NCBI GenBank assembly: GCA_016193315.1
Contig: JACPSJ010000001.1
Location: forward strand, 284,446 to 348,445
From: Candidatus Kerfeldbacteria bacterium
GTDB lineage: Bacteria > Patescibacteriota > Patescibacteriia > SBBC01 > CAIJZX01
Reading direction: 5' to 3'
Length of the DNA: 64,000 bases
Under the pieces are notes generated by a model. It saw nothing but the letters and a program-made list of their open reading frames with translations. It ran no database searches and was not told the DNA's origin. This document shows positions 19,769 through 53,729 of this stretch, one piece after another. A program made the position numbers and the translations under genes. The first letter of the stretch is position 1. Each line of letters starts with the position of its first letter.

Positions 19769-20386
19769 ATGGTTCAGAGCATTGCCGCGAACGCCCCGGG
19801 CTGGTTATACCTGCTGGCGGGGGTACTTCTTGGGTCCATCAGCCTGTGGTCGTCGCTGGTTATCATCCGGCGGCCAGCGCGCGGGTCGACCGTCGCCCGA
19901 CGGGCGGCTTGGTGGCTAGTCACCGTCCAGCTGGCGTTTCTCTTTCTATCGCACGGTCTACTCTGGCGAGACTTCCGGCGGAGTGACTTCACCCGCTGGC
20001 TGGTACCGCCGCATAACTGGTTTCTGGTTGACCAGTTCAACCAAGACCTAACCTCGCTGTTGGCCGGCTGGCTGGCCGCCGGTGTCCTTTTCCTCCTGCT
20101 GGCCCTGCTGTTCGTCAAGGTCTGGCCGGGGAAGTTTCTCGACCCCACCGATCTCATGTTACTGAGCCTCGGCGCCGGAGTCGTCGGTTGGCCGTCGGTA
20201 TTGTTGTTTCTCGGTCTCACTTTCGCCACCACCGTCATCGGACTCGTGTTCTTGGTTATCATCCGCCGGCGATCAGCGCGCGACCGCCTGGTGATTACCC
20301 CGTTTATTCCGGTGGCGGTGATTCTGACGTTGGTTTTCCAAACGCCATTGCTAGCCTGGACGCACCTCGGGGCGATCAGGTTCTAA
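19769..20386 (+). CDS. polytopic membrane protein, possibly A24 prepilin-peptidase-like (no zinc-finger domain)
   Basis: 5-6 TM helices. FLDPTDLMLLSLGAGVVGWP and the terminal ITPFIPVAVILTLVF resemble the GGDVKLL / PFGPFLA regions of A24 peptidases. Start chosen at ATG 19769 (AGGA 8 nt upstream). Confidence 0.35.
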   Translation: MVQSIAANAPGWLYLLAGVLLGSISLWSSLVIIRRPARGSTVARRAAWWLVTVQLAFLFLSHGLLWRDFRRSDFTRWLVPPHNWFLVDQFNQDLTSLLAGWLAAGVLFLLLALLFVKVWPGKFLDPTDLMLLSLGAGVVGWPSVLLFLGLTFATTVIGLVFLVIIRRRSARDRLVITPFIPVAVILTLVFQTPLLAWTHLGAIRF

Positions 20387-20418
20387 CCGCGGGTCGATCA
20401 ATCTGCTATACTTCTCTC

Positions 20419-20826
20419 ATGATCAGAAAAGGCTTTTCCTTCGCCGAAACACTGATCGTCGGCTCGCTCTTCGCCCTGGCTGTCCTGCTTGGGACGCTGC
20501 TCCTGTCGGGTGAACGGGCCCGGACCAGGGACGCCAAGCGGATCGCCGACATGACCCGGGTGGCCGGCGCCATGGCCGTCCTCTACGCCCAACAGGCCAG
20601 TTACGCCTCGGCTGCTCAAGGCTGCGCCAAGATCGGTGATGCGGCCAGCGCTTGCACGTTTGCCGCCGCCCCTGGCTGGGGGGAACTGCAAGATCCGGGT
20701 CGGTTTTCCTACACCGTGGTGCGCGTCCCGGATGGGGACGATTTCGGGGTTCGCTTTCGACTGGAAAGAAACTACGGCCCACTCCGTGCTGGGCCGCACG
20801 TCGTCACCAAGACCGGAATCCACTAA
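20419..20826 (+). CDS. second type IV pilin-like protein
   Basis: MIRKGFSFAETLIVGSLFALAVLLG is a prepilin leader (G|FSFAE, Glu at +5). TGCTATACT at 20404-20412 lies 6 nt upstream of the ATG (leaderless). Confidence 0.7.
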   Translation: MIRKGFSFAETLIVGSLFALAVLLGTLLLSGERARTRDAKRIADMTRVAGAMAVLYAQQASYASAAQGCAKIGDAASACTFAAAPGWGELQDPGRFSYTVVRVPDGDDFGVRFRLERNYGPLRAGPHVVTKTGIH

Positions 20827-21593
20827 TGACCGACCACCCGGTACTGTTGGTGCTCGTGTTTGTACTCGGCGCCGCGGTCGGCAGCTGGCTCAACGTGGTC
20901 ATTCTCCGGACGCACAACCAAACTCCCCATTGGCTGGGACGATCGCGCTGTCCGCATTGTCACCGCACCCTGGAGTGGTGGGAACTCATCCCGGTCGTCA
21001 GCTTCATCGCCCTGGGTGGTCGCTGCCGCACCTGTCACCGCGACCTCGACCCACAGTACCTGATCGTCGAACTGCTGACCGGCGTCGCCTTTCTAATTGT
21101 CTGGCGAGCCATGGGCTGGACGGCCGTACTGCTGACCGCCTGGTTGGTGGCGGCGGCGATGATCAGCATCGCCGTCTACGACGCGCGTTGGTCGGTCATT
21201 CCCGACAGCTTCACGCTCAGCCTAGCGCTGGCCGCCATCCTGTTCGTCACCCTCAGCCGACAGCCGTGGCTGGACAGTCTGCTGGGCGGTTTGGTCGGCG
21301 CCACGTTCTTCGCCTTGCAGTACTTCCTTTCCCGGCGGCGCTGGGTCGGCAGCGGCGACATCCTGCTCGGCCTGGCGCTCGGCTTGCTGCTCGGCTGGCG
21401 GATGCTCGGCCTGGCGCTGATGGGGGCGTATTTCCTCGGCGCGCTCAGCGCCTCCACGCTGATCATTCTGCGGCGCGCCAACCATGGCAGCGCCATGGCC
21501 TTCGGCCCATATCTGATGCTGGGGGGTTTCTTGACGTGGTTGTGGGGGCCGCAGGTAGTTGAATGGTATTTTCGCCATGCCATTTTTTTCTAA
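20826..21593 (+). CDS. pilD: prepilin peptidase PilD (A24A family)
   Basis: Start overlaps the pilin stop (TAATG). CPHCHRTLEWWELIPVVSF...GRCRTCHRDL tetracysteine domain. Catalytic-Asp motifs (VYDARWSVIPD; GSGDILLGLALGLLLG). Confidence 0.85.
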   Translation: MTDHPVLLVLVFVLGAAVGSWLNVVILRTHNQTPHWLGRSRCPHCHRTLEWWELIPVVSFIALGGRCRTCHRDLDPQYLIVELLTGVAFLIVWRAMGWTAVLLTAWLVAAAMISIAVYDARWSVIPDSFTLSLALAAILFVTLSRQPWLDSLLGGLVGATFFALQYFLSRRRWVGSGDILLGLALGLLLGWRMLGLALMGAYFLGALSASTLIILRRANHGSAMAFGPYLMLGGFLTWLWGPQVVEWYFRHAIFF

Positions 21594-22176
21594 ACCGGCC
21601 GGGCTAACGCTGGTCGAACTCTTGATCAGCATCGCGGTCATTGGCATCCTTAGTTCGATCGTCTTTGTCGGATTCTATCAAGACCGCGAACGCTCAGCTG
21701 TCAAGCGCGCCGCCGAGCAACTGCAAGTCGACGTTCAATCCGCCCAGAACCGGGCTCAGTCTGGAGTTTTGACCGGCGGCAGCCTGCCAGCTGGCTACGG
21801 TGTCCACTTTGACGTGGCCACGCCCGACCGTTACCTCATCTTTGCCGATGCCTTGAGCGGCAGCCCGCCAGCTGGCGACAATGAATACCGCCCTCCACCC
21901 GGGGGCACGGACACCATCGTGACGACGGTCATCCTACCGTCCAGAGTCGTGGTGCATCGCATTGGTGTGATCAGCCTCACCTTTGACCGCGGATCAGCGG
22001 TTTTCAGCGTGCCGAACGCCCAAAGCACCTTGCGGGTCTGGGACGCCGGCGGAGCGGCCTCAACGCCGTCGTCGTTGCCGATCACCCTCCGCCAGACGAG
22101 GGCCAACCTGTGCTATAGTGTTACTATCGTGCCTAGCGGAACGGTCAGTCAGCGACAATTGGATTCATGCTCATAA
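21577..22176 (+). CDS. minor pilin / pseudopilin
   Basis: MPFFSKPAGLTLVELLISIAVIGIL gives G|LTLVE prepilin cleavage. ATG 21577 chosen over the upstream TTG in the track. Confidence 0.7.
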   Translation: MPFFSKPAGLTLVELLISIAVIGILSSIVFVGFYQDRERSAVKRAAEQLQVDVQSAQNRAQSGVLTGGSLPAGYGVHFDVATPDRYLIFADALSGSPPAGDNEYRPPPGGTDTIVTTVILPSRVVVHRIGVISLTFDRGSAVFSVPNAQSTLRVWDAGGAASTPSSLPITLRQTRANLCYSVTIVPSGTVSQRQLDSCS

Positions 22177-31448: not shown

Positions 31449-31997
31449 GCTGGTTTTTTCTTGCCAAAAGCGAAGCCGCAGAGTACGCTGAAGCCGCCCC
31501 ATCCCTCATCGTTGTTCGATACATCTGTCCTTGGAGCGCTGAATCCCCCCGGCTCGTGGGCCGAGGGTCTGGCGCAACCGGCGGCCAAAAAGCTGCGGCA
31601 GGACGCTCAAGTGCTCCTTCGCGAAGTACTGGAGTTGTCCGACAGCAGCCCTCGTCATTCGTAACGGCGAGGAATCAGGCCCGCTTACCATGAGTTGAGG
31701 ACACGGTGAGGATGGGGTTCGAGCGGCATCCGGTCGTACGACCGGATAGCGAGCAAACTGCTTTGCTCGCGGCCGCGAGAACGGGCGAGCCGATGCTTCG
31801 AGCGGAGCGAGGAGCCGGATCGCCCAGGGGAAATTGCCAAAATATCAGAAAAATATTTCTAATGGAGCATGGTGCCTCCGTAAAATCCTGCTGTCCCGGG
31901 ATCACGGGGCAGGCAGTTGGCAGCCCCGCGCAACAACTCGCAAGCTCGCGGTCTGTGGGGTAAACGCGCATATTGATAAAACATCGTCAGCTCGGGT

Positions 31998-32070
31998 CGG
32001 GGTGTGGCGCAGCTGGTAGCGCGCTTGCATGGGGTGCAAGAGGCCGTGGGTTCAAATCCCGCCACCCCGA
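31998..32070 (+). tRNA. tRNA-Pro (anticodon GGG)
   Basis: Cloverleaf read by eye. Acceptor CGGGGTG/CACCCCG, D-arm GCGC-AGCTGGTA-GCGC, anticodon arm CTTGC-ATGGGGT-GCAAG, T-arm GTGGG-TTCAAAT-CCCGC, discriminator A. CCA not encoded. Confidence 0.8.
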
Positions 32071-32108
32071 CCCGAGCTGGTAGCGCATGCATGGGGGTCG
32101 AGGCCGCA
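32071..32108 (+). pseudogene. degenerate partial copy of the tRNA-Pro D-arm/anticodon-arm region
   Basis: GAGCTGGTAGCGC-ATGCATGGGGGT-CGAGGCCG parallels tRNA positions about 14-48 (AGCTGGTAGCGC / TGCATGGGG / GAGGCCG). No T-arm or acceptor. Confidence 0.3.
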
Positions 32109-32446
32109 ACGCGAAGCGCATGTTTCGACGCCGAGTTTGACGAGGCGAGGAACGGCGAGGCCCCGGACCGAGGCGGGCTTGCGAGACGAGAGGCAACAAA
32201 CCGCTTTCTTCCGACCGGCGAGATGGGTGACGCGATTCCCCAACCCGATCGTGGGCGCGACACCCCGGAGCTGAAGATCCCGGGTTTCCGGCAAAGCTGG
32301 ATCCGGCTCGGCCGGACAAATCCCGGTACCCCGACCATTGGGAACAATGCGTCTAACACTTCTCGTTAGTGTCGCGATAGTCATCGGGCTCTATATTCTT
32401 ATCGGCCCGCCTCGGCGGTCATACGGCCGACCGAACCTACGCCGGC

Positions 32447-32842
32447 GTGGTACAAGACTGCAGTACCTCGAAGCCCGTGGCCGCGGAGGTGCAAATCTCC
32501 GGGACCGAACGACGTTTTAACTGGCGCATCTTTCCCTTCCCGATCTGGGATTTTCCGGTTGGCGCAGAGACGGCAACTGACAACCAGGGCAGATTCTCAG
32601 CCCGGCTGAAGGTAACTGACGAAACTGCTACACTCCACGCGCGGAAAGATGGATATCTTGCCGCTGAACAGGTTGATACAGCAGGAACCAACATTGTCAT
32701 TGGCCGGTTAAAGAAAACCACCGCCCATAAACCGGCCGAGTTTACGACCCGCTGCAAACTCAGCAGTGAGTGTCTTGTAACCACCACCGAGACCGATGCT
32801 CAGGGACGGGCCATCCAGGTGACAAAAAACGTTTGTCAGTAG
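32447..32842 (+). CDS. CarboxypepD_reg-like beta-sandwich domain protein, probably frameshifted from an upstream TM-anchor ORF (32347-32415)
   Basis: Motifs FPVGAETATDNQGRFSARL...KDGYLAAEQVDTAGTNIVIGRL match carboxypeptidase-regulatory-like domains. The only start is GTG. A +1 frame upstream encodes MRLTLLVSVAIVIGLYILIGPP and then Arg-rich nonsense. Confidence 0.35.
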   Translation: MVQDCSTSKPVAAEVQISGTERRFNWRIFPFPIWDFPVGAETATDNQGRFSARLKVTDETATLHARKDGYLAAEQVDTAGTNIVIGRLKKTTAHKPAEFTTRCKLSSECLVTTTETDAQGRAIQVTKNVCQ

Positions 32843-32944
32843 TTTGACGAATACTGATTATCCGCGGGATACGGAGCCGGCATTGACTCTTTAGCCCGGC
32901 GATGGTAGGCCAGGAGTGTAATTGTTGACCGGACGGATTCGAGA

Positions 32945-33451
32945 ATGTGGAGGGCAACCAACACGTTCTTTCAAGCATGGTGTGAGGAGGTGATGGAAAT
33001 GAAGCCCCAGGTAGAGTGGGCGTTCGGCACTTGGCCGGAGTTGACCAGATTCAACCCGCGATTCAGCGCGGAGGCGCCTAAGATCCTGCTGGAAGTGGTA
33101 ATCCCGAACGAAGCGCCTTACGCCACCGTCGGCGTGGCGCCACTGTTCCGTTGTTTGAGCCACCGTCGCCCATCCCTGAAGCGCATTCGCTGCGGGGCCG
33201 GGGACAGGAGCCTGCACCTGACCGGCGAACAGCTAGTCGACCTGGCGCACTTATTCGAACACTACCTGACCTGCGTTCTCGGGCGTCATCTGCCAGGCCC
33301 GCGGGTCAGCGGCGTAACGCTCGTACCGGTGCGCGACGGGCAACCTTTCAGGATCTACGTTGAGTGCTGGTCGAACCAGCAGCGTTCCCTGCGGCTCTTG
33401 GCCTTGGCTGGCGGGGAATTTCTCCAGACGCTCAATCAGTTAGCAGCTTGA
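32945..33451 (+). CDS. hypothetical protein
   Basis: 168-aa ORF. No family recognised. Start ambiguous (M1, M17 or M19). Confidence 0.35.
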   Translation: MWRATNTFFQAWCEEVMEMKPQVEWAFGTWPELTRFNPRFSAEAPKILLEVVIPNEAPYATVGVAPLFRCLSHRRPSLKRIRCGAGDRSLHLTGEQLVDLAHLFEHYLTCVLGRHLPGPRVSGVTLVPVRDGQPFRIYVECWSNQQRSLRLLALAGGEFLQTLNQLAA

Positions 33452-33465
33452 CGGCACGATACTGA

Positions 33466-33822
33466 TTGGGCGTTTTTTCTTGTCCGACGATGAAGTCGCC
33501 AGGCGAGGTGCCCCTGACACAGTTTGCAAGTTGCCAGAATTGCGCTAGGCTGGTAGCAGAGATAACCACTGCGCTCATGCCCGAAACCATGGACGAGCAA
33601 GAACAAGCCTTGGCCGATCAACTCTCCTTTGACGCCGAGGAACTACACCGTATCGACCATGAATTAGAAGTGCACGACGTGCCACCTGAACGACGGGCGG
33701 ACGTGCACGACAAACTTTCGCTGCCAAGTACGGTTGGCTACGACGACCGACGGTTTTCCATCACCCGCAATCTCCACCATGGCTGGAACCTGGAGTGGCA
33801 CGATCAGCGTCGGGCGGCGTAA
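33466..33822 (+). CDS. hypothetical acidic protein
   Basis: 118-aa ORF, Glu/Asp-rich middle, CQNCARL motif. No family recognised. Confidence 0.35.
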   Translation: MGVFSCPTMKSPGEVPLTQFASCQNCARLVAEITTALMPETMDEQEQALADQLSFDAEELHRIDHELEVHDVPPERRADVHDKLSLPSTVGYDDRRFSITRNLHHGWNLEWHDQRRAA

Positions 33823-33825
33823 GAG

Positions 33826-33850
33826 AAAAACCTCCAGCTGGTGCGGGAGG
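33826..33850 (-). terminator. intrinsic terminator for the minus-strand 183-aa gene
   Basis: CCTCC-AGCTGGTGCG-GGAGG stem followed on the minus strand by a T-run (plus strand AAAAA at 33826-33830). Confidence 0.4.
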
Positions 33851-33866
33851 ATTGACGACGAAAGGG

Positions 33867-34418
33867 CTAATACTTACCGACGTACCGCAGCAGCGGCTCG
33901 CCGTCGACAATGACTACCTCGTAGTTGTGTTGTCGGAGTGATTGGCGTCGCTCTTCAGCTTCGGCTAGGACCCGCTGGTGCTGAACGAAGAACTGATGAT
34001 GGGCGGCGAGCTCCTGGAGTTCAGACCGATTCGACTGCCGCGATGCGACGCTGGCCGAGCGCTCGCGGCGATGGGCCGGCCGACCACGCTTCCTAGCTTG
34101 GTGCGGCCGGGACTTGGTCTTCGCGGCTTGGGAGGCCCGCTGTTGGCCCGTTTGGCCTTCAATCGAGAATGGGCGCCGCACGACCGACGTTACGTTCGGC
34201 CCACGATGACCACGCTTGGGTTTGGGCCGTCGCAACAGGCCTTTCGAGAGCAGGCCTTGGTAGCGCGACATGCCCTTGTCCCCGAACTGGGCGGTCAGCT
34301 GGGCGGTCAGATTTCGAACATCGAACTGCCGAGCTTTGCCGGTCCGGTCCAGCGACAGCAGGAAACGATAGGTCTTCGCTTGGACGAGAGTTAGGACCAA
34401 AGATCCGGATTGAGCCAT
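33867..34418 (-). CDS. putative winged-helix protein with conserved C-terminal HHQFF...GEPLLR domain (short paralog)
   Basis: GGAGGTGA RBS. N-terminus LVLTLVQAKTYRFLLSLD...KGLLRR has a wHTH-like pattern. Basic linker. The C-terminal 50 aa are shared with the 34553-36271 product. Confidence 0.55.
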   Translation of the reverse strand: MAQSGSLVLTLVQAKTYRFLLSLDRTGKARQFDVRNLTAQLTAQFGDKGMSRYQGLLSKGLLRRPKPKRGHRGPNVTSVVRRPFSIEGQTGQQRASQAAKTKSRPHQARKRGRPAHRRERSASVASRQSNRSELQELAAHHQFFVQHQRVLAEAEERRQSLRQHNYEVVIVDGEPLLRYVGKY

Positions 34419-34504
34419 AGTTCACCTCCAAAGAGCAGGGAGAAATTGGCCACCGTGGACAGCCAAACCCTAGCCGAACCGCCCTGACCTTGTCAACGGA
34501 GTCT

Positions 34505-34535
34505 AAAAAAAGCGACCAGCCTTGACAGCTGGTCG
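34505..34535 (-). terminator. Rho-independent terminator (minus strand) for the 572-aa gene
   Basis: CGACCAGC-TGTCAAG-GCTGGTCG hairpin followed on the minus strand by TTTTTTT (plus-strand A7 at 34505-34511). Confidence 0.55.
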
Positions 34536-34552
34536 GGGGACAGGAAACGTGG

Positions 34553-36271
34553 TTATCGCTTCCGGCGACGAAGGAGCGGTTCGCCCTCAACGGATACGAT
34601 CTCCCAGCCGAGTGCCCGCAGCACGGCGGCATGAGCGTCCCGCTCGGTCAGGAGGCGCTCCGCAGCCTCGAGTTCAGTCTGTCGCTCGATGAAGAATTGA
34701 TGGTGGGCAGAAGCGGCAGATGGGCTCGAGGGTTGGTCGGCCGTGGGACTGGGCTTCGAATCACTGGCCATGGGTCCTTGAGTCTGTCCTGGTCGAGTGG
34801 ACGGGGCGGGCGATCGAGTTGTGGTCCCGCCTGTGGCCGGAGTTGGGACTCCCGACCTGGCTTGCAGGTCGTTTGGCCGGTTGGTATCGGTTGACGGTCG
34901 GGCAGCTTGGCTCGCCCGATCGGACTTTGGTAGTCGCAGTGGAATCGGGTCAGCCCGGACTCCTGAGGATGTGGATTCAACGGTGGTGTAGCCTACCCGC
35001 CGGACGAACTTCCGGCCGTCCCGGTCGACGATCAACCCCTTCCCGACCAGCGGCGTATAGCGATTCGAACCGCTGGTGTCAGTGAACCGCCGGCCGAGCT
35101 TGGTGGTTATCCCATCTAGCGGGAATTCGTCGCCTTCTGCCGGTCCGAGGCCGAGCAGGTAATCATAGGATTCGGCCTGCTTTGACGTCAGGGTCACTAC
35201 CGCACGTTGTTGTGAAGGAGGCGCTGGTGGAGACGCCGGTCGTGTGTTAGACAGAGCCGTCTGCGCCCGGGCAGGAGGCGGAGCGACAACAGGTGCTGGC
35301 GACCGCTCCCCCGTTGCTGGAGTTGCGAGGAGGGCCTGAATTTCCTTCGCCAGCCGTGGTAAATCCTGACCAGCCTTCGGGCTCGCCAGAAGCTCCTGTT
35401 CTTGAATTCCTGCGTAGAAGGTCACGACTACCAGATTCTGGCGGGTCGAGACCGTGGGTATCCGAGGAGCTAAGTCGTCAGTCCGCTCGGCGAAACGATG
35501 CATCCGTACATATTGTACACTGGGGTGAACGGCGATCCGGGCCGCAACTTCTTGAGCGCCGGGAATCGGGCTGAAGTCCATAGCTATTCGCCGGCCGTCG
35601 AGGATCGGTGTATCGAGCGGCTGATCGTCTCGACGCAAGACTGACCCCTCGGCGTTTCTTTCTCCGCGTTGGACTAGGCTTGTTACTCCCGACCGGATTC
35701 GGCCGAGCGCACCCCGGTCCTTCGGCGCGATCGTGATGATCTGTCTCTGGCCGGCCGCGGTGACGATGACTTCGATGTTTCCGCTCCGCTCTTTCCAAGT
35801 TGATGGCCCTGATTCTTGAGTCGCCGGAGTTGGCTCCTGCTGCTCGACGTACTGGACGCCCGGGATCTCCGCCAGCTGTTCGGCTAGGCGCTGCGCTCCC
35901 GGGATCCACTTGGCGACATCGCCATATACTTCGGCTGCCGTGGACATGGATTCCTCCTGGTCTGCTCCCTGGGGCGCTCGACCATTGGTAGTTGGGGGCG
36001 AAGCGAGCGCATGCGCGATCGCTGGTTTAAGGTCAGCTGGACTAACAAACGGTTGTGGCACGACGAACAAGAACTGCAGTTCACTGCCGCGACGATAACG
36101 GACCAAGAGTTCGGTGCGGAGAGGTACGAGTTGCGGTTCAGGCCGTGTGTCCTTGACCGTCGCCGTCGTGCCCTGGCGAACACACTCCACACCGGGTAGA
36201 TTATTCAGGAGACGGGCGACCTCTTCGGCCCCGTCTACCCACCGAAACATCGGATTTGGTAGGACGGGCAT
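34553..36271 (-). CDS. 572-aa protein: three tandem ~95-aa PGAxxVAxxLxxxPGVxYV repeats, Pro-rich linker, wHTH-like domain and C-terminal HHQFF...GEPLLR domain (long paralog)
   Basis: AAGGAG RBS. Internal repeats at about aa 8-75, 110-180 and 215-290. Segment VVTLTSKQAESYDYLLGL...GKGLIVDRDGRKFVRRVGY parallels the N-terminus of the 183-aa neighbour. Identical C-terminal motif. Confidence 0.6.
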   Translation of the reverse strand: MPVLPNPMFRWVDGAEEVARLLNNLPGVECVRQGTTATVKDTRPEPQLVPLRTELLVRYRRGSELQFLFVVPQPFVSPADLKPAIAHALASPPTTNGRAPQGADQEESMSTAAEVYGDVAKWIPGAQRLAEQLAEIPGVQYVEQQEPTPATQESGPSTWKERSGNIEVIVTAAGQRQIITIAPKDRGALGRIRSGVTSLVQRGERNAEGSVLRRDDQPLDTPILDGRRIAMDFSPIPGAQEVAARIAVHPSVQYVRMHRFAERTDDLAPRIPTVSTRQNLVVVTFYAGIQEQELLASPKAGQDLPRLAKEIQALLATPATGERSPAPVVAPPPARAQTALSNTRPASPPAPPSQQRAVVTLTSKQAESYDYLLGLGPAEGDEFPLDGITTKLGRRFTDTSGSNRYTPLVGKGLIVDRDGRKFVRRVGYTTVESTSSGVRADPIPLRLPKSDRASQAARPSTDTNRPNDLQARSGVPTPATGGTTTRSPAPSTRPGQTQGPMASDSKPSPTADQPSSPSAASAHHQFFIERQTELEAAERLLTERDAHAAVLRALGWEIVSVEGEPLLRRRKR

Positions 36272-36583
36272 GGCTCGATCTCCTTCCGCACGGCGCGGAT
36301 TCGGGTCACACTTTTCAATGGGCAGATCTTCAGTCTAGCCGAGATGGCTGTGCTGTCAAGTAAGATGCCACTCAAATTATTTTGTGATTGATCGGAAATC
36401 TTGATAGACTTCCGATGTGTGACAGGGTGATACTGTCCGGCGCGGTGGCCAAACCGCGGGGGCGAATGTAGAACGTACCAGTTTAGGTTCATGGCCTGAC
36501 TGCGTTGTTCGCGTTACCTGATGGCTGGGATTTCGTTATACTATATGTAGGCCATAGATTCTAAGCTATGATTTCCCCAGGGC

Positions 36584-37123
36584 ATGGATGAATTGGCCAT
36601 CATCACGGCCTGCCAATGCGGCCAGCCGGAGCGGTTCGCCGCGTTGTACGACGCTTATGTCGACCGGATTTACGCCTTTCATTACTACCGCCTCGGCCAC
36701 CAACAAACGGCTGAGGATTTAACGAGCACCACCTTTCTAAAGGCCCTGGAGAGTATCACCACGTTTCATACTGGTTCGTTCTCAGCTTGGCTTTATCGGA
36801 TCGCTCGCAATACGCTAATTGATTTCTACCGCACCAGGCGACCGACCCTCGAGTTTAACGAGCAGTTCGACCGGCCAGCTCCTCATCACCCTGATCAGTC
36901 CGTCGACGCGACGTTAGCCATCGAGCGCATTCAGCGCTTTCTCCGCACGCTGACGGATGACCATCGCGAACTGGTCTTGATGCGCCTGTGGGATCAATTG
37001 CCGTTCGCCGAGATTGCGGCCATTACCGGCCGGAGCGAAGCCAGCTGCAAGATGGCCTTTTCCCGAACGATGGCTAAACTCCGTGCCGCTCTTGGCTCAA
37101 TCAGGCCGGTAGCGGCTGGCTAG
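36584..37123 (+). CDS. ECF-family RNA polymerase sigma factor
   Basis: Region 2 (TFLKALESITTFHTGSFSAWLYRIARNTLIDFYR) and region 4 (VLMRLWDQLPFAEIAAITGRSEASCKMAFSR). TATACT -10 at 36537-36542. Confidence 0.85.
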   Translation: MDELAIITACQCGQPERFAALYDAYVDRIYAFHYYRLGHQQTAEDLTSTTFLKALESITTFHTGSFSAWLYRIARNTLIDFYRTRRPTLEFNEQFDRPAPHHPDQSVDATLAIERIQRFLRTLTDDHRELVLMRLWDQLPFAEIAAITGRSEASCKMAFSRTMAKLRAALGSIRPVAAG

Positions 37124-37130
37124 ACCTTCC

Positions 37131-38654
37131 ATGGACCCACACATACGACAACTACTGGAGGAAATCTATCAGTCCCAGCCGGCTCTTCGTCAGCAAGAAC
37201 CACAGCTGGCGGCCTGGCTCGAGCAGTTTATGGTCGCGCGACCAACGGTGCAACTTACGCCCGATTTCCGCCAGCAGCTCCGGCAAAAACTTCTGGCGGC
37301 TGCCAGGTCTACTTCCCAGCCACCATCTTTATCAACTGACTCATGGTTTATGCCCAAATGGATCATTCCGGCGGCGGCTACGGCCGTCATTATTGCGGTG
37401 GCCATCCCGTTAACTAATCTGCTGATGCCGAAAGCACCGCCCACCACTACGGGACCAGGTGTAACCATTGCCACGGTCGGGGCCGACGCTTTTGGATCGC
37501 TGGCGTCGGCCACCAAGCAATCATTGTCCGCCACCAGCCCGACCGGGGGGGCCGCTGAACGGCGCAGCGCTACTGCACCGGTCACGGCCGATGACTCGAC
37601 TGGCCTGGGTACCGGCGTGGGGACGACCATCGTGGAACCTGTACCACCGGAAAGTGTTAAGCGGTATGAATTTATCTATGACGGACCGATCGCCATTCCC
37701 GATCTGCCGATACTGATGCGCCAGGCGACGCTGCGGGCGGGTACGGTGACCGGACTGATTGATGATGTGGGCCTCATTGGAAGTGAACCGTTCCGTTCCT
37801 ATCAACCCCAGTATCTGACCGTCGCCCAGAGCGTCGCCGATGGTTTGACGCTGTCGATCGACTACGTCAACGGCAGCATCTCGCTCTATCGGAATCAAAC
37901 AGTCGCGCTTGACCGCGGTATCAGCGTCGGGGTTGAGTCACCGGTCAGTCTCGAACAGGTACAGTTGGCCAGCCTCCCTCCTGACGACGAACTGATTACT
38001 GTGGCTAACCGTTTCCTCGATCAGTATGGCATTAGCCGTCAAGGATTTGGCCAGCCAATCGTCAATAAGGATTTCCTCCGCTACGAAATCATGGCCCAAA
38101 CGGACATGGTCTACGCGCCCCAGGAGTTGACCGTAGTCTATCCCTGGCAGATCAACGGCCAGCCGGTCTACGACGAAAGCGGCAACCGCTATGGGTTGGT
38201 GGTTAATGTTAACGCCGTGACCAAGACGGTGTCAGGAGTTTCTAACTTGGTAACTCTCAGTTTCCAAGCCTCAGATTACGCTCGGGAAGACGATTCGGAC
38301 AAGATCGTCGAAGTCGCCAAGCACGGCGGACTGTACAGCTACCAACCTGAACCGGCCGAGGGCGTGGAGACAGTCAAGATCCAACTCGGCCAACCAGCGA
38401 GCGGCTACATGATTTCCCGCTACCAGCTCGACCAGACGAGCAGCGAGTTCCTGGTCCCGGCCCTGATCTTCCCGATCACCTCGGTCCCCAGCGGCGAGCA
38501 GCTCTATCAGTCCTCGATCATCGTGCCGGTGGTCAAGGACCTCCTCGCCCAAGGCGACGCCACGATTAAACCGATGCCGTTGCCGGCCGAAGGCGGGGGC
38601 TCGGAACCTTCCTCGGCGGGCCCGGTCAACGCCGAATCAGACAGCCAACCATAG
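37131..38654 (+). CDS. putative anti-sigma factor / single-pass membrane protein with large extracytoplasmic domain
   Basis: Immediately downstream of the ECF sigma. About 85-aa cytoplasmic N-terminus, one TM (WIIPAAATAVIIAVAIPL), 400-aa external domain. Confidence 0.5.
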   Translation: MDPHIRQLLEEIYQSQPALRQQEPQLAAWLEQFMVARPTVQLTPDFRQQLRQKLLAAARSTSQPPSLSTDSWFMPKWIIPAAATAVIIAVAIPLTNLLMPKAPPTTTGPGVTIATVGADAFGSLASATKQSLSATSPTGGAAERRSATAPVTADDSTGLGTGVGTTIVEPVPPESVKRYEFIYDGPIAIPDLPILMRQATLRAGTVTGLIDDVGLIGSEPFRSYQPQYLTVAQSVADGLTLSIDYVNGSISLYRNQTVALDRGISVGVESPVSLEQVQLASLPPDDELITVANRFLDQYGISRQGFGQPIVNKDFLRYEIMAQTDMVYAPQELTVVYPWQINGQPVYDESGNRYGLVVNVNAVTKTVSGVSNLVTLSFQASDYAREDDSDKIVEVAKHGGLYSYQPEPAEGVETVKIQLGQPASGYMISRYQLDQTSSEFLVPALIFPITSVPSGEQLYQSSIIVPVVKDLLAQGDATIKPMPLPAEGGGSEPSSAGPVNAESDSQP

Positions 38655-43986: not shown

Positions 43987-46104
43987 ATGATTCATGCAGT
44001 TAGCGTCGAGCCAACACAAACTACCATGATTGCTTCGACTGGTCAAGACCGGTCGGCGGTTACGACGACCGTGACTGGAGGCGGTCGGTCAATGGGCGCG
44101 GCGCGACGATTGTTTATCGCCAGCGGACTGATTTTGTTCCTGGAGTTGTGCTTGATCCGCTGGTCCGGGGCCAACGTCGTTCACCTCTCGTATTTTACCA
44201 ATTTCATCTTGCTCGGAAGCTTCCTCGGCATCGGACTCGGTTTTCTAACCATCCGCTGGACTTTCTCCATGCTGACGCTCTCAACCTATCTCTTGGCCGG
44301 GTACGTGGCGTTGATTCTAGTCGCGCCGGTCCAGATCGTTCGTGATTTTTCCGAACTGATTTTTTTCACCGCCATTGACGGCCGGTTAACTGGTCTGCCA
44401 GCCTGGCTGATGTTGCCGCTGATCTTTGTCTTTGTCACTGCCATTTTTATGACCCTGGCTCAGACGATGGGTCGGGCCTTTGCTCAACTGCCGGCCTTGG
44501 CCGCCTACCGGATCGATATTCTGGGCAGCTTGACCGGGATCGTCGTCTTTTCCGGTCTGTCATTCTTGGGTTGGCCGCCGCTGACCTGGGGGATCTTGGT
44601 CGCGGCCGGCTACCTCTGCCTTCAGGAACGCGGCCAATGGCGGAAAATGGTTGTGCCCCTCGGGGCGATAGTTATCCTCTTGGGCCTTGAATCTCTGCCG
44701 GCCAACATTAGGTGGTCGCCGTATTATAAGGTCGATTTTCGGCGCCAACTCCTGGCGGGTGGCCTGGGCGAGGCCACCGTCGTCCAGGTCAATGGCATCC
44801 CGCATCAGTCCGCCCTATCAGTGGCAGCGGTCGAGCAGGCCCAGCTGGTGTATCTCTGGCCTTATGAACGCTATGGCCCTCAGCCGCCGTCGCGGGTGCT
44901 GGTAATTGGTGCCGGCACCGGCACCGATGTCGCCACGGCACTGGCCAAAGGCGCAAACCGGGTGGAGGCGGTCGAAATCGACCCCGTCTTGGCCAAATTG
45001 GGACGCCAGCGACATCCCGACCGGCCGTACGATGACCCGCGGGTCCAGCTTTGGCTGACGGACGGGCGCGCTTTCCTTGAACAAACTGCGGCCGTCTACG
45101 ACCTAATAGTCTTCGCCCTGCCAGATTCGCTGACGCTGGTCGCTGGCCAGTCCTCCCTGCGTCTAGAAAGTTATATGTTTACTCGTGAGGCCATTAGGGC
45201 GACGGCCAAAAAGTTGGCTCCGGAAGGGGTGTTCGTGATGTATAATTATTACCGTCGGCCATGGCTGATTGATCGGCTGGCGACGACGCTCCAAGAAGTA
45301 TTCGGCGTCAGACCGTGCGTCGAGCGGGTAACCGGGGAGACCGACGTCATGCTGTCAGTCGCCCTCAGGCCGAACCGGATTACTTGCCCAAATCAAGACC
45401 AAAGAAACGCTGTCCCGCCGGTCACGGATGATTACCCTTTTCTGTATTTAGGCCAACGCTCGATACCGACTTTCTACTTGTTGACCCTGCTGTTGATCGT
45501 GGCCTTTTCTGGCTTGGCCGTGCGGCGTGTCCTCGGCCCGCTCCGCCAGCTTCGACCGTACGCGGATCTATTTTGGATGGGCGCCGCCTTTTTGCTGTTG
45601 GAAACCAAGAATGTGGTCCAATTTGCCCTGCTGTTCGGGACGACATGGATCGTCAACGCCCTAGTCTTTGCCGGCATTTTGGGGGTAGTATTTCTGGCCG
45701 TAACAATGGCCCGACATTTGATCATTCGCCGGCTCGAGTGGTGGTACGGCGCTCTACTCGCCTCGTTGCTTGTGGCCTGGCTGGTGCCGCCGGGGTGGCT
45801 GCTGCGACTGTCTGCCGGCCCCAGATTCTTGGCGGCCACCGTCCTGGCCTTCGCGCCGGTTTTTATCGCCAATTGTATTTTTGCCAGTCGATTGCGCGCG
45901 GCGGCGTCATCAACGGCGGCCTTGGCTGCCAACCTACTGGGGGCCATGGTTGGTGGCGTGCTCGAGTATACTTCCCTAGTGGTTGGTTACCGTTATCTCC
46001 TGGTCTTGATCGCCGCCTGCTATGTTGCCGCGCTGTGGCTAATGCCCCGCCCCGGACGCCATCAAGATCGAATTGCCTTCGGGGCAACCGATGCGGTAGA
46101 ATAG
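43987..46104 (+). CDS. polytopic membrane protein with spermidine-synthase-like (SpeE) aminopropyltransferase domain
   Basis: N- and C-terminal TM bundles flank VLVIGAGTGTDV...VEAVEIDPVLAKL...DLIVFALPDS (SpeE fold). The true start may be the Met at 44092. Confidence 0.55.
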   Translation: MIHAVSVEPTQTTMIASTGQDRSAVTTTVTGGGRSMGAARRLFIASGLILFLELCLIRWSGANVVHLSYFTNFILLGSFLGIGLGFLTIRWTFSMLTLSTYLLAGYVALILVAPVQIVRDFSELIFFTAIDGRLTGLPAWLMLPLIFVFVTAIFMTLAQTMGRAFAQLPALAAYRIDILGSLTGIVVFSGLSFLGWPPLTWGILVAAGYLCLQERGQWRKMVVPLGAIVILLGLESLPANIRWSPYYKVDFRRQLLAGGLGEATVVQVNGIPHQSALSVAAVEQAQLVYLWPYERYGPQPPSRVLVIGAGTGTDVATALAKGANRVEAVEIDPVLAKLGRQRHPDRPYDDPRVQLWLTDGRAFLEQTAAVYDLIVFALPDSLTLVAGQSSLRLESYMFTREAIRATAKKLAPEGVFVMYNYYRRPWLIDRLATTLQEVFGVRPCVERVTGETDVMLSVALRPNRITCPNQDQRNAVPPVTDDYPFLYLGQRSIPTFYLLTLLLIVAFSGLAVRRVLGPLRQLRPYADLFWMGAAFLLLETKNVVQFALLFGTTWIVNALVFAGILGVVFLAVTMARHLIIRRLEWWYGALLASLLVAWLVPPGWLLRLSAGPRFLAATVLAFAPVFIANCIFASRLRAAASSTAALAANLLGAMVGGVLEYTSLVVGYRYLLVLIAACYVAALWLMPRPGRHQDRIAFGATDAVE

Positions 46105-52306: not shown

Positions 52307-52825
52307 ATGCCTCGCTACACGATCGCCGCCTTGGTGCCCGATCCATGGGCCGCGGAGATTCATGCCCTCCGGCGGCAATTTGATCGTTGGTCGCGACAGT
52401 GGTTACCGCCGCACCTAACGATTGTTCCTCCGGTCTCGGCCGACATCAGTCTGCCGATGGTGGTCGAGATCGAAACGTTCCCGGCCGACATCGCGGTCAA
52501 CTGGCAAGGCTGGGGCGCCTTTCATCATGAGCGGAGCAACGTCATCTGGCTCCACGCCGGTCAGGGGGTCACCGATCACCTCCGACCGAAACTGGTATCC
52601 GCCATCCCATCCCTGGCGGCGACGGCGACCATCCCGCCGGTTGACTGGCAAGGCCCAGCGGCTTATCACGTGACCGTGGTCAATCGCGTTCCCCATGATG
52701 TCTTCGCTGAGCTTGATCAGGAATTGCGGAAACGGACAGTCGCCGGACAGTTTGTTATCCCCTGGCTGACGGTTTTTCAGTGGGACGAGTTGACGAACCG
52801 CTGGCTGTTTGCCCGCCCGAAGTAG
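52307..52825 (+). CDS. 2H-phosphoesterase superfamily protein (LigT-like, two HxT/S motifs)
   Basis: PHLTIVPP and YHVTVVNRV. ATG 7 nt after TATACT (52294-52299). Confidence 0.65.
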   Translation: MPRYTIAALVPDPWAAEIHALRRQFDRWSRQWLPPHLTIVPPVSADISLPMVVEIETFPADIAVNWQGWGAFHHERSNVIWLHAGQGVTDHLRPKLVSAIPSLAATATIPPVDWQGPAAYHVTVVNRVPHDVFAELDQELRKRTVAGQFVIPWLTVFQWDELTNRWLFARPK

Positions 52826-52844
52826 AAAGAGAAGTAGAAAGAAA

Positions 52845-52866
52845 GGAGCCCCCTCAGGGAGGCTCC
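52845..52866 (-). terminator. hairpin GGAGCCCCCT-C-AGGGAGGCTCC, T-rich on the minus strand
   Basis: Lies between convergent genes. The minus-strand downstream sequence CCTTTCTTTCT gives the T-tract. Preceded on the plus strand by a GAAGTAGAAAGA x2 tandem repeat. Confidence 0.4.
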
Positions 52867-52899
52867 CGTGTCAGTCGGCCAGTGGACCTTGAGGTGACC

Positions 52900-53493
52900 T
52901 TACCGTGCGCGATGGCTATGGTGAGAAGCATGGCGTCTGAATCCTTTCACAAGCTTCCACGGTTTCAAAATGATGAGCTGACTCAGGGTGGCCTGAAGCA
53001 GTTCAGGGACGTGCCAGCGCCGGAATCGAATGTGCCATTTTCGGCGCGTGGCGGGATGGGAGAGACGCGACATCCAGCTCATGGCGGCCAGCTGGACCAG
53101 CCAGATGGTGGCTTCGATGGCGCTCGCCGGCAGCTGCAGCCGGACATGCGGCGACAGCCAATCGACCACCATCAGCGTGCCGAGGAATGTCAACCAACTG
53201 ACCACCAGCCGGTCGGCACTCTTTCGGCCGCGACGAATCTTGAACCACCGATGGGCTTCCTGTCGAAGGAAGAGGATGACGATCAGCCCGAGACCGGGCC
53301 AGGTACGGAGGAGCCACTCGCTGAGCAGCTGCCCCCACGGTCGTTCATTCTCAACCAACGCCAAGAGGTCCCGATAGCCGAAGGGGATATCGAAGGTCAG
53401 ATCGAGCGTCAGCCAGGCCTGGGTAATGAGCCACAAGCCCGCTGAGCACAGGACCAGCCGTCGAGCCACCCCTTTCAGGGTATGGATCAACAC
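52900..53493 (-). CDS. hypothetical polytopic membrane protein
   Basis: 197 aa with 4-5 Trp/Leu-rich TM helices. No family recognised. Confidence 0.4.
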   Translation of the reverse strand: MLIHTLKGVARRLVLCSAGLWLITQAWLTLDLTFDIPFGYRDLLALVENERPWGQLLSEWLLRTWPGLGLIVILFLRQEAHRWFKIRRGRKSADRLVVSWLTFLGTLMVVDWLSPHVRLQLPASAIEATIWLVQLAAMSWMSRLSHPATRRKWHIRFRRWHVPELLQATLSQLIILKPWKLVKGFRRHASHHSHRAR

Positions 53494-53729
53494 AACAGTT
53501 CACCACCTCGTGTGTCGAGCACGGGTTGTCAAGGTCCTTTGGATGGTGACTGACGTCCCCACCCTACACCCCCAGGACGAGTTGTCAAGTCCACTGCCGG
53601 CTAGACGTAGAACCAGGATCGGGACGAGAAGAGCCTACCCGTCGTGGGCACAAACAGTCGTTTTTTGGCTAACCATAAGGAAGAAAAACAACCCTCGATG
53701 GGGGGAAAACATCTGGAAACATGACAGGC

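What the first reader, a model, noticed from the sequence alone, without database searches (positions are those of the whole stretch)
33867..36271. Adjacent paralogous pair of putative winged-helix proteins sharing N- and C-terminal domains; the long one carries three tandem ~95-aa repeats
The 183-aa and 572-aa minus-strand products share two regions.

- The first is a wHTH-like segment (LVLTLVQAKTYRFLLSLD...KGLLRR versus VVTLTSKQAESYDYLLGL...KGLIVDRDGRKFVRRVGY).
- The second is a nearly identical C-terminal ~50-aa domain (HHQFF(V/I)..Q..L.EAEER.........G.E(V/I)V.V(D/E)GEPLLR).

The long protein additionally has an N-terminal array of three repeats with the pattern PGA(Q/E)xVAxxLxxxPGVxYVxx...(I/L)xVxV, then a Pro/Ser-rich linker. 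Each gene has its own strong RBS and its own intrinsic terminator. I could not place either conserved domain in a known family. A duplicated DNA-binding pair next to a tRNA hints at a mobile-element-derived regulator or partition/defence module.
Basis: seen in the sequence. Interest (0 to 1): 0.6.

Follow-up and report, generated by a model that had tools for sequence, protein, structure and literature searches.

The report
Lineage-specific winged-helix protein pair in Kerfeldbacteria
Two neighbouring genes in an uncultivated groundwater bacterium (Candidatus Kerfeldbacteria) are old duplicates from a small, previously undescribed family of very basic winged-helix proteins that most likely bind DNA as dimers; they are ordinary chromosomal genes, not part of a mobile or defence element.

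Summary
The 183-aa protein (A, 33867-34418, minus strand) and the 572-aa protein (B, 34553-36271, minus strand) are paralogues (BLASTP E = 2e-15). B carries three real ~90-aa N-terminal repeats (z = 6-11 against shuffles).

An exhaustive HMMER search of 1.84 billion proteins finds only 24 clusters in this family. None matches Pfam, NCBIfam, PHROGs, PADLOC or PDB sequences. The family plan is N(1-3 copies)-W(1-2)-C, and A is the W-C form.

An AlphaFold model built with the family alignment is confident for all three domains (pLDDT above 90):
- N is an alpha-beta4-alpha sandwich.
- W has the canonical winged-helix order.
- C is a long helix plus a beta-hairpin. Helix length is 21 or 28 residues, a one-heptad step, which suggests coiled-coil dimerisation.

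The proteins are very basic (A has pI 11.6). Each gene has a near-consensus sigma-70 promoter, a strong ribosome-binding site and a terminator. The genes sit among housekeeping genes with regional synteny, so the mobile/partition/defence reading is not supported.

Best guess: an abundant dimeric DNA-binding architectural or global regulatory protein specific to this lineage. The function is inferred, not shown. Interest is moderate to low.

The parts
34553..36271 (-). Gene B, 572 aa (NCBI: MAG hypothetical protein HYY50_01665, Candidatus Kerfeldbacteria). Architecture N-N-N-W-C.
   Evidence: ORF; identity to the NCBI protein; domain HMMs
35990..36256 (-). B N-domain repeat 1 (aa 6-94)
   Evidence: HMM E = 6e-25; groups with repeat 1 of P0003, P0004 and P0025
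35657..35926 (-). B N-domain repeat 2 (aa 116-205)
   Evidence: HMM E = 2e-24; groups with repeat 2 of P0003 and P0004
35312..35587 (-). B N-domain repeat 3 (aa 229-320), modelled as an alpha-beta4-alpha sandwich
   Evidence: HMM E = 4e-26; AF2 pLDDT 87-98 with H11-19, E24-34, E45-49, E52-59, E62-70 and H76-88 in the model
34979..35206 (-). B winged-helix (W) module (aa 356-431)
   Evidence: HMM E = 5e-22; AF2 order H1-S1-H2-H3-S2-S3 with pLDDT 85-97; weak WH fold hits
34715..34978 (-). B disordered Pro/Ser/Thr-rich linker (aa 432-519)
   Evidence: pLDDT below 50; 17% identity to A's linker
34556..34714 (-). B C module (aa 520-572): a 28-residue helix plus a beta-hairpin, the putative dimerisation element
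   Evidence: HMM E = 8e-18; pLDDT 91-97; helix length differs by one heptad across the family
36332..36359 (-). Promoter of B: TTGACA-N16-TAGACT, 61 nt upstream of the start codon
36280..36287 (-). Shine-Dalgarno of B (GGAAGGAG)
   Evidence: read from the sequence
34503..34535 (-). Intrinsic terminator after B (9-bp stem with 6 GC pairs, then CTTTTTTT)
33867..34418 (-). Gene A, 183 aa, architecture W-C, pI 11.6, net charge +23
34164..34409 (-). A winged-helix (W) module (aa 4-85), pI 11.9
   Evidence: HMM E = 3e-30; charge
34011..34163 (-). A basic linker (aa 86-136, pI 12.0), containing KRGRP, an AT-hook-like core
33870..34010 (-). A C module (aa 137-183): a 21-residue helix plus a beta-hairpin
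   Evidence: HMM E = 9e-25; helix length
34467..34496 (-). Promoter of A: TTGACA-N18-TAGGGT, 49 nt upstream of the start codon; shares TCGGCTAG with B's promoter
34422..34429 (-). Shine-Dalgarno of A (GGAGGTGA)
   Evidence: read from the sequence
33821..33850 (-). Weak terminator-like hairpin plus U-run after A
   Evidence: -10.6 kcal/mol, z = -1.4; not flagged by the scan

Best explanation
A and B are chromosomal paralogues from a small family found so far only in Kerfeldbacteria-like (CPR/Patescibacteria) genomes. The family is modular. It has one to three N domains (alpha-beta4-alpha sandwiches), a disordered linker, one or two winged-helix (W) modules, a second and usually basic disordered linker, and a C module made of a coiled-coil-type helix capped by a beta-hairpin.

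The most likely mechanism is as follows. The C module dimerises the protein. The winged helix and the basic linker then bind nucleic acid, most probably DNA, with low or moderate sequence specificity. The N domains add protein-protein contacts for higher-order assembly or partner binding. The proteins are therefore probably abundant architectural (nucleoid-associated) or global regulatory DNA-binding proteins.

In the lineage of this window, an ancestral N-W-C gene was duplicated in tandem. One copy kept an old three-N array (B) and the other lost N (A). That gives a long form and a short form, which may act as separate homodimers or may mix.

Shown: paralogy, the repeats, family membership, the predicted folds, the charge, the expression signals and the genomic context. 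Inferred: dimerisation, DNA binding and the cellular role.
For: Family: only 24 clusters in 1.84e9 proteins, with the architecture N(1-3)-W(1-2)-C.

Charge: A has pI 11.6 and net +23. Its W module has pI 11.9 and its linker pI 12.0, with a KRGRP motif. Most family members have pI of about 10. A conserved V-x-R-R-P-Y strand sits in the wing.

C module: a long helix plus a hairpin with no globular core of its own. The helix is 21 residues in 8 members and 28 in 4, a one-heptad step.

Expression: two of only three TTGAC[AT]-N16-18-TAnnnT sites in the 64-kb window lie 49 and 61 nt upstream of A and B. Eleven of the 12 homologue upstream regions read in other loci carry the same near-consensus promoter, and all 12 have a GGAGG-type RBS.

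Context: housekeeping neighbours and regional synteny. The gene is usually its own transcription unit.

Age of the pair: the long-plus-short pair is conserved in a second genome, L004. The N repeats cluster by position, so the array is old.
Against: There is no experimental data and no significant match to any characterised DNA-binding family.

The best WH fold hits (PBP2, MCM8 WH, RPA2 WH) are protein-interaction winged helices rather than DNA readers, so W need not bind DNA.

B itself is only mildly basic (net +6, and W +3), and two members are acidic (P0004 and P0014, pI about 6).

High expression is inferred from promoter quality only. Dimerisation through C is inferred from shape and the heptad indel only. 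A and B differ by one heptad, which argues against a fully in-register A-B heterodimer.
Confidence: 0.42

Rival explanations
1. A and B are sequence-specific transcription factors, possibly autoregulated. The winged helix reads an operator, the C module dimerises the protein as in many wHTH regulators, and the N domains act as sensor or ligand-binding modules.
For: Winged helix plus a dimerisation element is the standard regulator layout. MarR_2 and TrmB match below threshold. A and B share an extra TCGGCTAG element within their promoters, a pattern that occurs only at these two sites in the window. B is divergent from an ECF sigma/anti-sigma pair.
Against: No conserved target gene or operon partner is seen across 12 loci. 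The ECF pair is absent from the other loci. Specific regulators rarely combine near-consensus promoters, strong RBSs and pI 10-12. The shared promoter bases may simply be left over from the duplication. The N domain shows no ligand-binding family signal.
Confidence: 0.25
2. The proteins are adaptors or scaffolds. W is a protein-interaction winged helix, as in RPA32C, the MCM8 WH domain and archaeal PBP2, and the N domains are Roadblock/profilin-like interaction platforms. On this reading the proteins recruit replication, repair or division factors and do not bind DNA themselves.
For: The top WH fold matches are protein-binding WH domains (PBP2, MCM8 WH, RPA2 WH). The N domain weakly resembles Roadblock/LC7/MglB/LAMTOR and profilin, which are interaction platforms. 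Many members carry a conserved short linear motif, QRGGVGQSSKDEVxIPxxIRRR, after N. One member lies beside the dcw cluster.
Against: All the fold matches are weak. The extreme positive charge of A and of most members, and the conserved RR in the wing, are better explained by nucleic-acid binding. No partner gene is conserved nearby.
Confidence: 0.13
3. The proteins bind RNA or associate with the ribosome. On this reading they are lineage-specific additions to the unusual CPR translation apparatus.
For: Very basic small proteins with very strong promoters and RBSs and a 50-70 nt leader resemble ribosomal-protein genes. Winged helices can bind RNA (general knowledge). P0025 lies 2 kb from the S13-S11-S4 genes.
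Against: The genes are not in ribosomal operons in most loci. The number of N and W copies varies between close relatives, which is unusual for ribosomal components. No Rfam element or notable leader was found.
Confidence: 0.07
4. This is the first reader's reading: a mobile-element-derived regulator, or a partition or defence module, inserted next to tRNA-Pro.
For: A tRNA-Pro lies 1.8 kb away, and 18 of 20 bases of its 3' end are repeated 264 bp downstream. Three orphan ORFs lie between the tRNA and A. A and B run against the prevailing gene direction. One of the orphan ORFs has a sub-threshold PbeB hit, E = 0.0057.
Against: The tRNA repeat does not bracket A and B. No integrase, ParA or defence hit was found in the ORFs scanned. 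GC content and codon-position GC are normal. Homologues lie at syntenic chromosomal positions among housekeeping genes in genomes of 42-67% GC. The viral collection could not be scanned with the family alignments, and the viral fold library gave one marginal hit.
Confidence: 0.03

Closest known systems
Small winged-helix domains (MCM8 WH 6l0o, RPA2/RPA32C WH 9f2a, archaeal PBP2 5n35/5n41, LexA DNA-binding domain 1leb, GntR-type PhnF 3f8m)
   Different: Sequence identity is 8-16%. No hit reaches Foldseek E <= 1e-3. There is no Pfam membership. The flanking N and C modules and the basic linker are absent from those proteins.
MarR/TrmB-type wHTH transcription regulators (Pfam PF12802, PF01978)
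   Same: A winged helix combined with a helical dimerisation element. There are sub-threshold sequence hits for 2 and 1 of the 26 W modules (E = 0.01 and 0.016).
   Different: The hits are below Pfam thresholds. In MarR the dimerisation helices flank the wHTH within one compact domain. Here the dimerisation element is a separate helix-hairpin module 50-90 disordered residues away, and one to three extra N domains are present.
Architectural DNA-binding proteins built from a DNA-binding fold plus basic disordered tails and an oligomerisation module (linker histone H1/H5, archaeal TrmBL2, H-NS/Lsr2). This is a functional analogy from general knowledge.
   Same: A is a winged helix followed by a pI-12 disordered tail with an RGRP-type core, which is the layout of linker histones. 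The oligomerisation module, flexible linker and DNA-binding module recall H-NS/Lsr2. Strong expression signals are also shared.
   Different: There is no sequence or significant fold relationship to any of them. The domain order differs, and DNA binding and abundance are untested.
Roadblock/LC7/MglB and other two-layer alpha/beta sandwiches (ANL-ligase C-terminal domain, ribosomal S6, CzcD C-terminal domain, profilin)
   Different: The matches are weak and spread over several unrelated superfamilies. The N domain's alpha-beta4-alpha order is not that of Roadblock (alpha-beta2-alpha-beta3-alpha) or of ferredoxin-like folds. There is no sequence signal.

Membership tests
Winged-helix (wHTH) fold | Secondary-structure order H1-S1-H2-H3-S2-wing-S3 | tested here: met
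   The AF2 model has H135-147, E154-156, H160-168, H173-182, E186-189 and E192-196, with pLDDT 85-97.
Winged-helix (wHTH) fold | Significant structural superposition on solved WH domains | tested here: inconclusive
Winged-helix (wHTH) fold | Binding of DNA through helix 3 and the wing | not testable with these tools
   Only indirect support: a conserved RR in the wing strand and a W-module pI of 11.9 in A.
MarR / TrmB regulator families (Pfam PF12802, PF01978) | Score above Pfam's gathering threshold | tested here: not met
   No hit for A or B. Only 2 and 1 of the 26 W modules hit, at E = 0.01-0.016.
Integrated mobile element at a tRNA | An integrase or recombinase gene, and direct repeats of the tRNA 3' end bracketing the cargo | tested here: not met
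   No integrase among the flanking ORFs that were scanned; the ORFs at 30.8-32.4 kb beside the tRNA were not scanned. The only repeat of the tRNA 3' end is at 32317-32336, 264 bp from the tRNA and 1.5 kb short of A.
Integrated mobile element at a tRNA | Compositional difference from the host, and patchy non-syntenic distribution | tested here: not met
   GC is 0.59-0.63 at the locus against about 0.60 for the window. Codon-position GC is normal. Homologues lie at syntenic positions beside YjbQ and RNaseH_like.
Anti-phage defence systems (PADLOC) and phage protein families (PHROGs) | A match to a defence or phage protein model | tested here: not met
   No hits for A or B. The BFVD fold search gave one marginal unnamed hit at E = 8.5e-4.
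ParABS-type partition module | An adjacent ParA/Walker ATPase gene, and a ParB/RHH-type centromere-binding fold | tested here: not met
   No ParA or ParB Pfam hit in the neighbours in the window or in 12 other loci. The fold is a winged helix.
Roadblock/LC7 (N domain) | The alpha-beta-beta-alpha-beta-beta-beta-alpha fold with a significant structural or sequence match | tested here: not met

The most novel reading that the evidence does not exclude
The family is a previously unrecognised, lineage-specific chromatin (nucleoid) protein system of Kerfeldbacteria-like CPR bacteria. It would have a linker-histone-like core (a winged helix plus a basic disordered tail), a new coiled-coil/hairpin dimeriser and new N-terminal assembly domains. 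The long (B) and short (A) paralogues would tune DNA bridging or compaction in these very small cells.
Probability: 0.2. Interest if true: 0.55.

Novelty: new variant of a known kind. Interest (0 to 1): 0.33.

Why it matters
CPR/Patescibacteria genomes are full of lineage-specific proteins of unknown function. This locus defines one such family cleanly, with three confidently modelled domains. Two of those domains, N and C, have no convincing relative in PDB. The genes also appear to be among the most strongly promoted in the region.

If the family proves to be a nucleoid-organising or global DNA-binding protein, it would add a new type of bacterial chromatin protein. It would also give a marker for this lineage.

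If it is only a specific regulator, it is an ordinary if unannotated wHTH family. In either case the finding removes a false lead, because this is not a mobile, partition or defence cassette.

Tried and rejected
- Curated libraries (Pfam, NCBIfam, PHROGs, PADLOC) and PDB sequence searches, with single sequences and with N and W profiles, gave nothing significant.
- The word-indexed homologue search failed three times. B alone found only itself. The N-domain profile returned nothing. The exhaustive HMMER search was what revealed the family.
The B-clade alignment found one Kerfeldbacteria genome.
- Single-sequence AF2 of B was poor, with pLDDT 39.
- The AFDB fold library was not available.
- The island hypothesis was rejected, as set out in the membership tests.
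- A functional link to the divergent ECF sigma/anti-sigma pair was rejected, because that pair is absent from all the other loci.
- I first read the shared TTGACA...GGCTAG element of A and B as a special operator. It is mostly a near-consensus sigma-70 promoter that family members in other genomes also have. Only the extra TCGGC bases are specific to A and B.
- Rfam found no RNA element in the leaders or in the region apart from the tRNA.
- The literature searches found no description of such a family.
Full report
1. THE OBSERVATION

Both ORFs are present exactly as described: A at 33867-34418 (minus strand, 183 aa) and B at 34553-36271 (minus strand, 572 aa). BLASTP of A against B gives E = 2e-15 and aligns A 7-178 with B 359-568, so both shared regions are real. 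By module, identity is 34% for the N-terminal shared segment (W), 46% for the C-terminal module and 17% for the linker. 'Nearly identical' therefore overstates the C-terminal match, although the AHHQFF and GEPLLR ends are identical.

BLAST self-comparison does not detect B's three N-terminal repeats. Smith-Waterman scores beat all 300 shuffles for each pair (z = 7.5, 6.1 and 11.4). An iterated HMM places them at aa 6-94, 116-205 and 229-320 with E about 1e-24.

Both genes have strong Shine-Dalgarno sequences. B has a clear intrinsic terminator. A has only a weak hairpin followed by a U-run. tRNA-Pro(GGG) at 31997-32073 is 1.8 kb from A, with three small ORFs in between, so it is not adjacent.

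2. THE FAMILY

B is identical to an NCBI protein named 'MAG: hypothetical protein HYY50_01665 [Candidatus Kerfeldbacteria bacterium]', on an 857-kb contig. Neither protein matches Pfam, NCBIfam, PHROGs, PADLOC or any PDB sequence.

An exhaustive HMMER search of 1.84 billion representative proteins, using a profile of B and A, found just 24 clusters at E <= 1e-3. Their 90% clusters hold one to four members each.

Domain HMMs show a modular plan: N (about 90 aa, one to three copies), then W (about 80 aa, one or two copies), then C (about 50 aa). The commonest form is a single N-W-C protein of about 300 aa. A is the W-C form, as are P0008, P0022 and P0024. Many members also carry a conserved motif, QRGGVGQSSKDEVxIPxxIRRR, just after N. 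B lacks it.

Two loci are labelled Candidatus Kerfeldbacteria. The others are unlabelled metagenome contigs with GC from 42% to 67%.

3. STRUCTURE

Single-sequence AF2 of B was uninformative, with pLDDT 39. With a 40-row family alignment (A4), the model of B 229-572 reaches pLDDT above 90 in three domains separated by disordered linkers.
- N is helix, four antiparallel strands, helix.
- W is strand-H1-S1-H2-H3-S2-S3, the canonical winged-helix order.
- C is a long helix followed by a beta-hairpin.

- Small winged-helix domains: PBP2, MCM8 WH, RPA2 WH, LexA, PhnF, Clr and FapR.
- Two-layer alpha/beta sandwiches: the ANL-ligase C-terminal domain, S6, the CzcD C-terminal domain, Roadblock/LC7/MglB and profilin.

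W modules also give sub-threshold MarR_2 and TrmB hits. The winged-helix call is therefore supported, while N and C have no convincing known relative.

In the C module, the helix between the HxxFF motif and the hairpin is 21 residues in eight members (including A) and 28 in four (B, P0004, P0009, P0025). Two members are exceptions, at 31 and 11 residues. A one-heptad step fits a coiled-coil dimerisation helix.

4. PHYSICOCHEMISTRY AND EXPRESSION SIGNALS

A has pI 11.6 and net charge +23. Its W module has pI 11.9 and its linker pI 12.0, with a KRGRP (AT-hook-like) core. Most family members have pI of about 10. B is milder (pI 9.3), and two members are acidic.

In the whole 64-kb window only three sites match TTGAC[AT]-N16-18-TAnnnT. 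Two of them lie 49 and 61 nt upstream of A and B. The more specific TTGACA-N13-18-GGCTAG occurs only at these two sites, against 0.02 expected by chance.

Eleven of the 12 upstream regions of family genes read in other loci show the same near-consensus promoter. All 12 have a GGAGG-type RBS, and the leader, where the promoter is present, is 50-70 nt. This suggests strong constitutive expression, but that is an inference.

5. CONTEXT AND EVOLUTION

The family gene is usually a separate transcription unit among housekeeping genes. Neighbours include ribosomal proteins and SecA, the dcw cluster, ClpB, ThyA/DHFR, RecO, PolA and TGT. No operon partner is conserved.

Regional synteny exists. In L012 the single-N member lies between YjbQ and an RNaseH_like gene, and the window's copies of those two genes (62% and 42% identical) sit side by side about 5 kb from B. 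Zincin_1 is nearby in both the window and L004.

The long-plus-short adjacent pair recurs only in L004 (P0004 followed by P0008). A is 41% identical to P0008 but only 25% identical to B. The duplication therefore predates the split of those two genomes.

B's three repeats cluster by position with those of P0003 and P0004. The array is old and position-specific, not a recent expansion. The window holds no further paralogue.

6. THE MOBILE/DEFENCE/PARTITION READING

- There is no compositional anomaly.
- No integrase, ParA or defence protein was found in the ORFs scanned. The ORFs beside the tRNA at 30.8-32.4 kb were not scanned.
- The only repeat of the tRNA 3' end (18 of 20 bases, at 32317-32336) is 264 bp from the tRNA and does not bracket A and B.
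- The viral fold library gave one marginal unnamed hit.

7. MECHANISM

Most likely (about 0.4): these are dimeric nucleic-acid-binding proteins with an architectural or global role. C dimerises the protein, W and the basic linker bind DNA, and N mediates assembly or partner contacts.

Rivals:
- A specific, possibly autoregulated transcription factor pair (0.25).
- A protein-interaction scaffold whose winged helix behaves like those of RPA32C, MCM8 or PBP2 (0.13).
- An RNA- or ribosome-associated protein (0.07).
- A mobile, defence or partition module (0.03).

None of the functional steps has been shown. They rest on fold, charge, expression signals and context.

8. VERDICT

This is a real, well-defined and previously unannotated protein family restricted to a CPR lineage. 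It is built around a known fold (the winged helix) with two accessory domains that lack clear relatives. I rate it a new variant of a known kind, of moderate to low interest. No system-level novelty was demonstrated, and the mobile-element lead is refuted.

Noticed in passing
L004 3020-3520 (+): The orthologue of A in a second genome (P0008) ends at an in-frame TAG (...ADQRRARL*). The same frame continues as ELHYEIVIHDGEALLRYTGHK*, which is the family's conserved C-terminal hairpin, and a terminator follows. This could be a nonsense mutation, an assembly error or TAG read-through.
   Followed up: partly
window 32053-32072 and 32317-32336 (+): The 3' end of tRNA-Pro is repeated (18 of 20 bases) 264 bp downstream, against 0 matches expected by chance. 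It may be the remnant of an old integration site. It does not enclose the A and B genes.
   Followed up: partly
window 32447-33822 (+): Three small plus-strand ORFs (131, 168 and 118 aa) lie between tRNA-Pro and A. They have no family match and no homologue in the other loci fetched. The 118-aa ORF has a sub-threshold PADLOC PbeB hit at E = 0.0057.
   Followed up: partly
Family members P0006, P0007, P0009-P0013, P0015, P0017, P0018 and P0020 (for example P0010 aa 95-115): A conserved short motif, QRGGVGQSSKDEVxIPxxIRRR, follows the N domain in the single-N clade and is absent from B, P0003, P0004 and P0025. It may be a short linear interaction motif. Its function is unknown.
   Followed up: no
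window 53561-53588 (-) and 52900-53493 (-): The third near-consensus sigma-70 promoter in the window lies about 68 nt upstream of a 197-aa minus-strand ORF that looks like a membrane protein. That ORF overlaps a longer plus-strand ORF (52780-53445) whose translation looks non-genic. The minus-strand ORF is probably the real gene.
   Followed up: partly
window 36584-38654 (+): An ECF sigma factor (Sigma70_r2 and r4_2) and a 507-aa probable anti-sigma protein are transcribed divergently from B. The pairing with the family gene is not seen in any other locus.
   Followed up: yes
window 20001-22000 and 44001-46000: Two 2-kb bins have strongly negative AT skew (-0.22 and -0.24), against about 0 elsewhere. 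The cause was not examined. T-rich codons in membrane-protein genes on the plus strand are one possibility.
   Followed up: no
window, whole: Nearly all predicted genes in the 64-kb window are on the plus strand. A and B are among the few on the minus strand.
   Followed up: no
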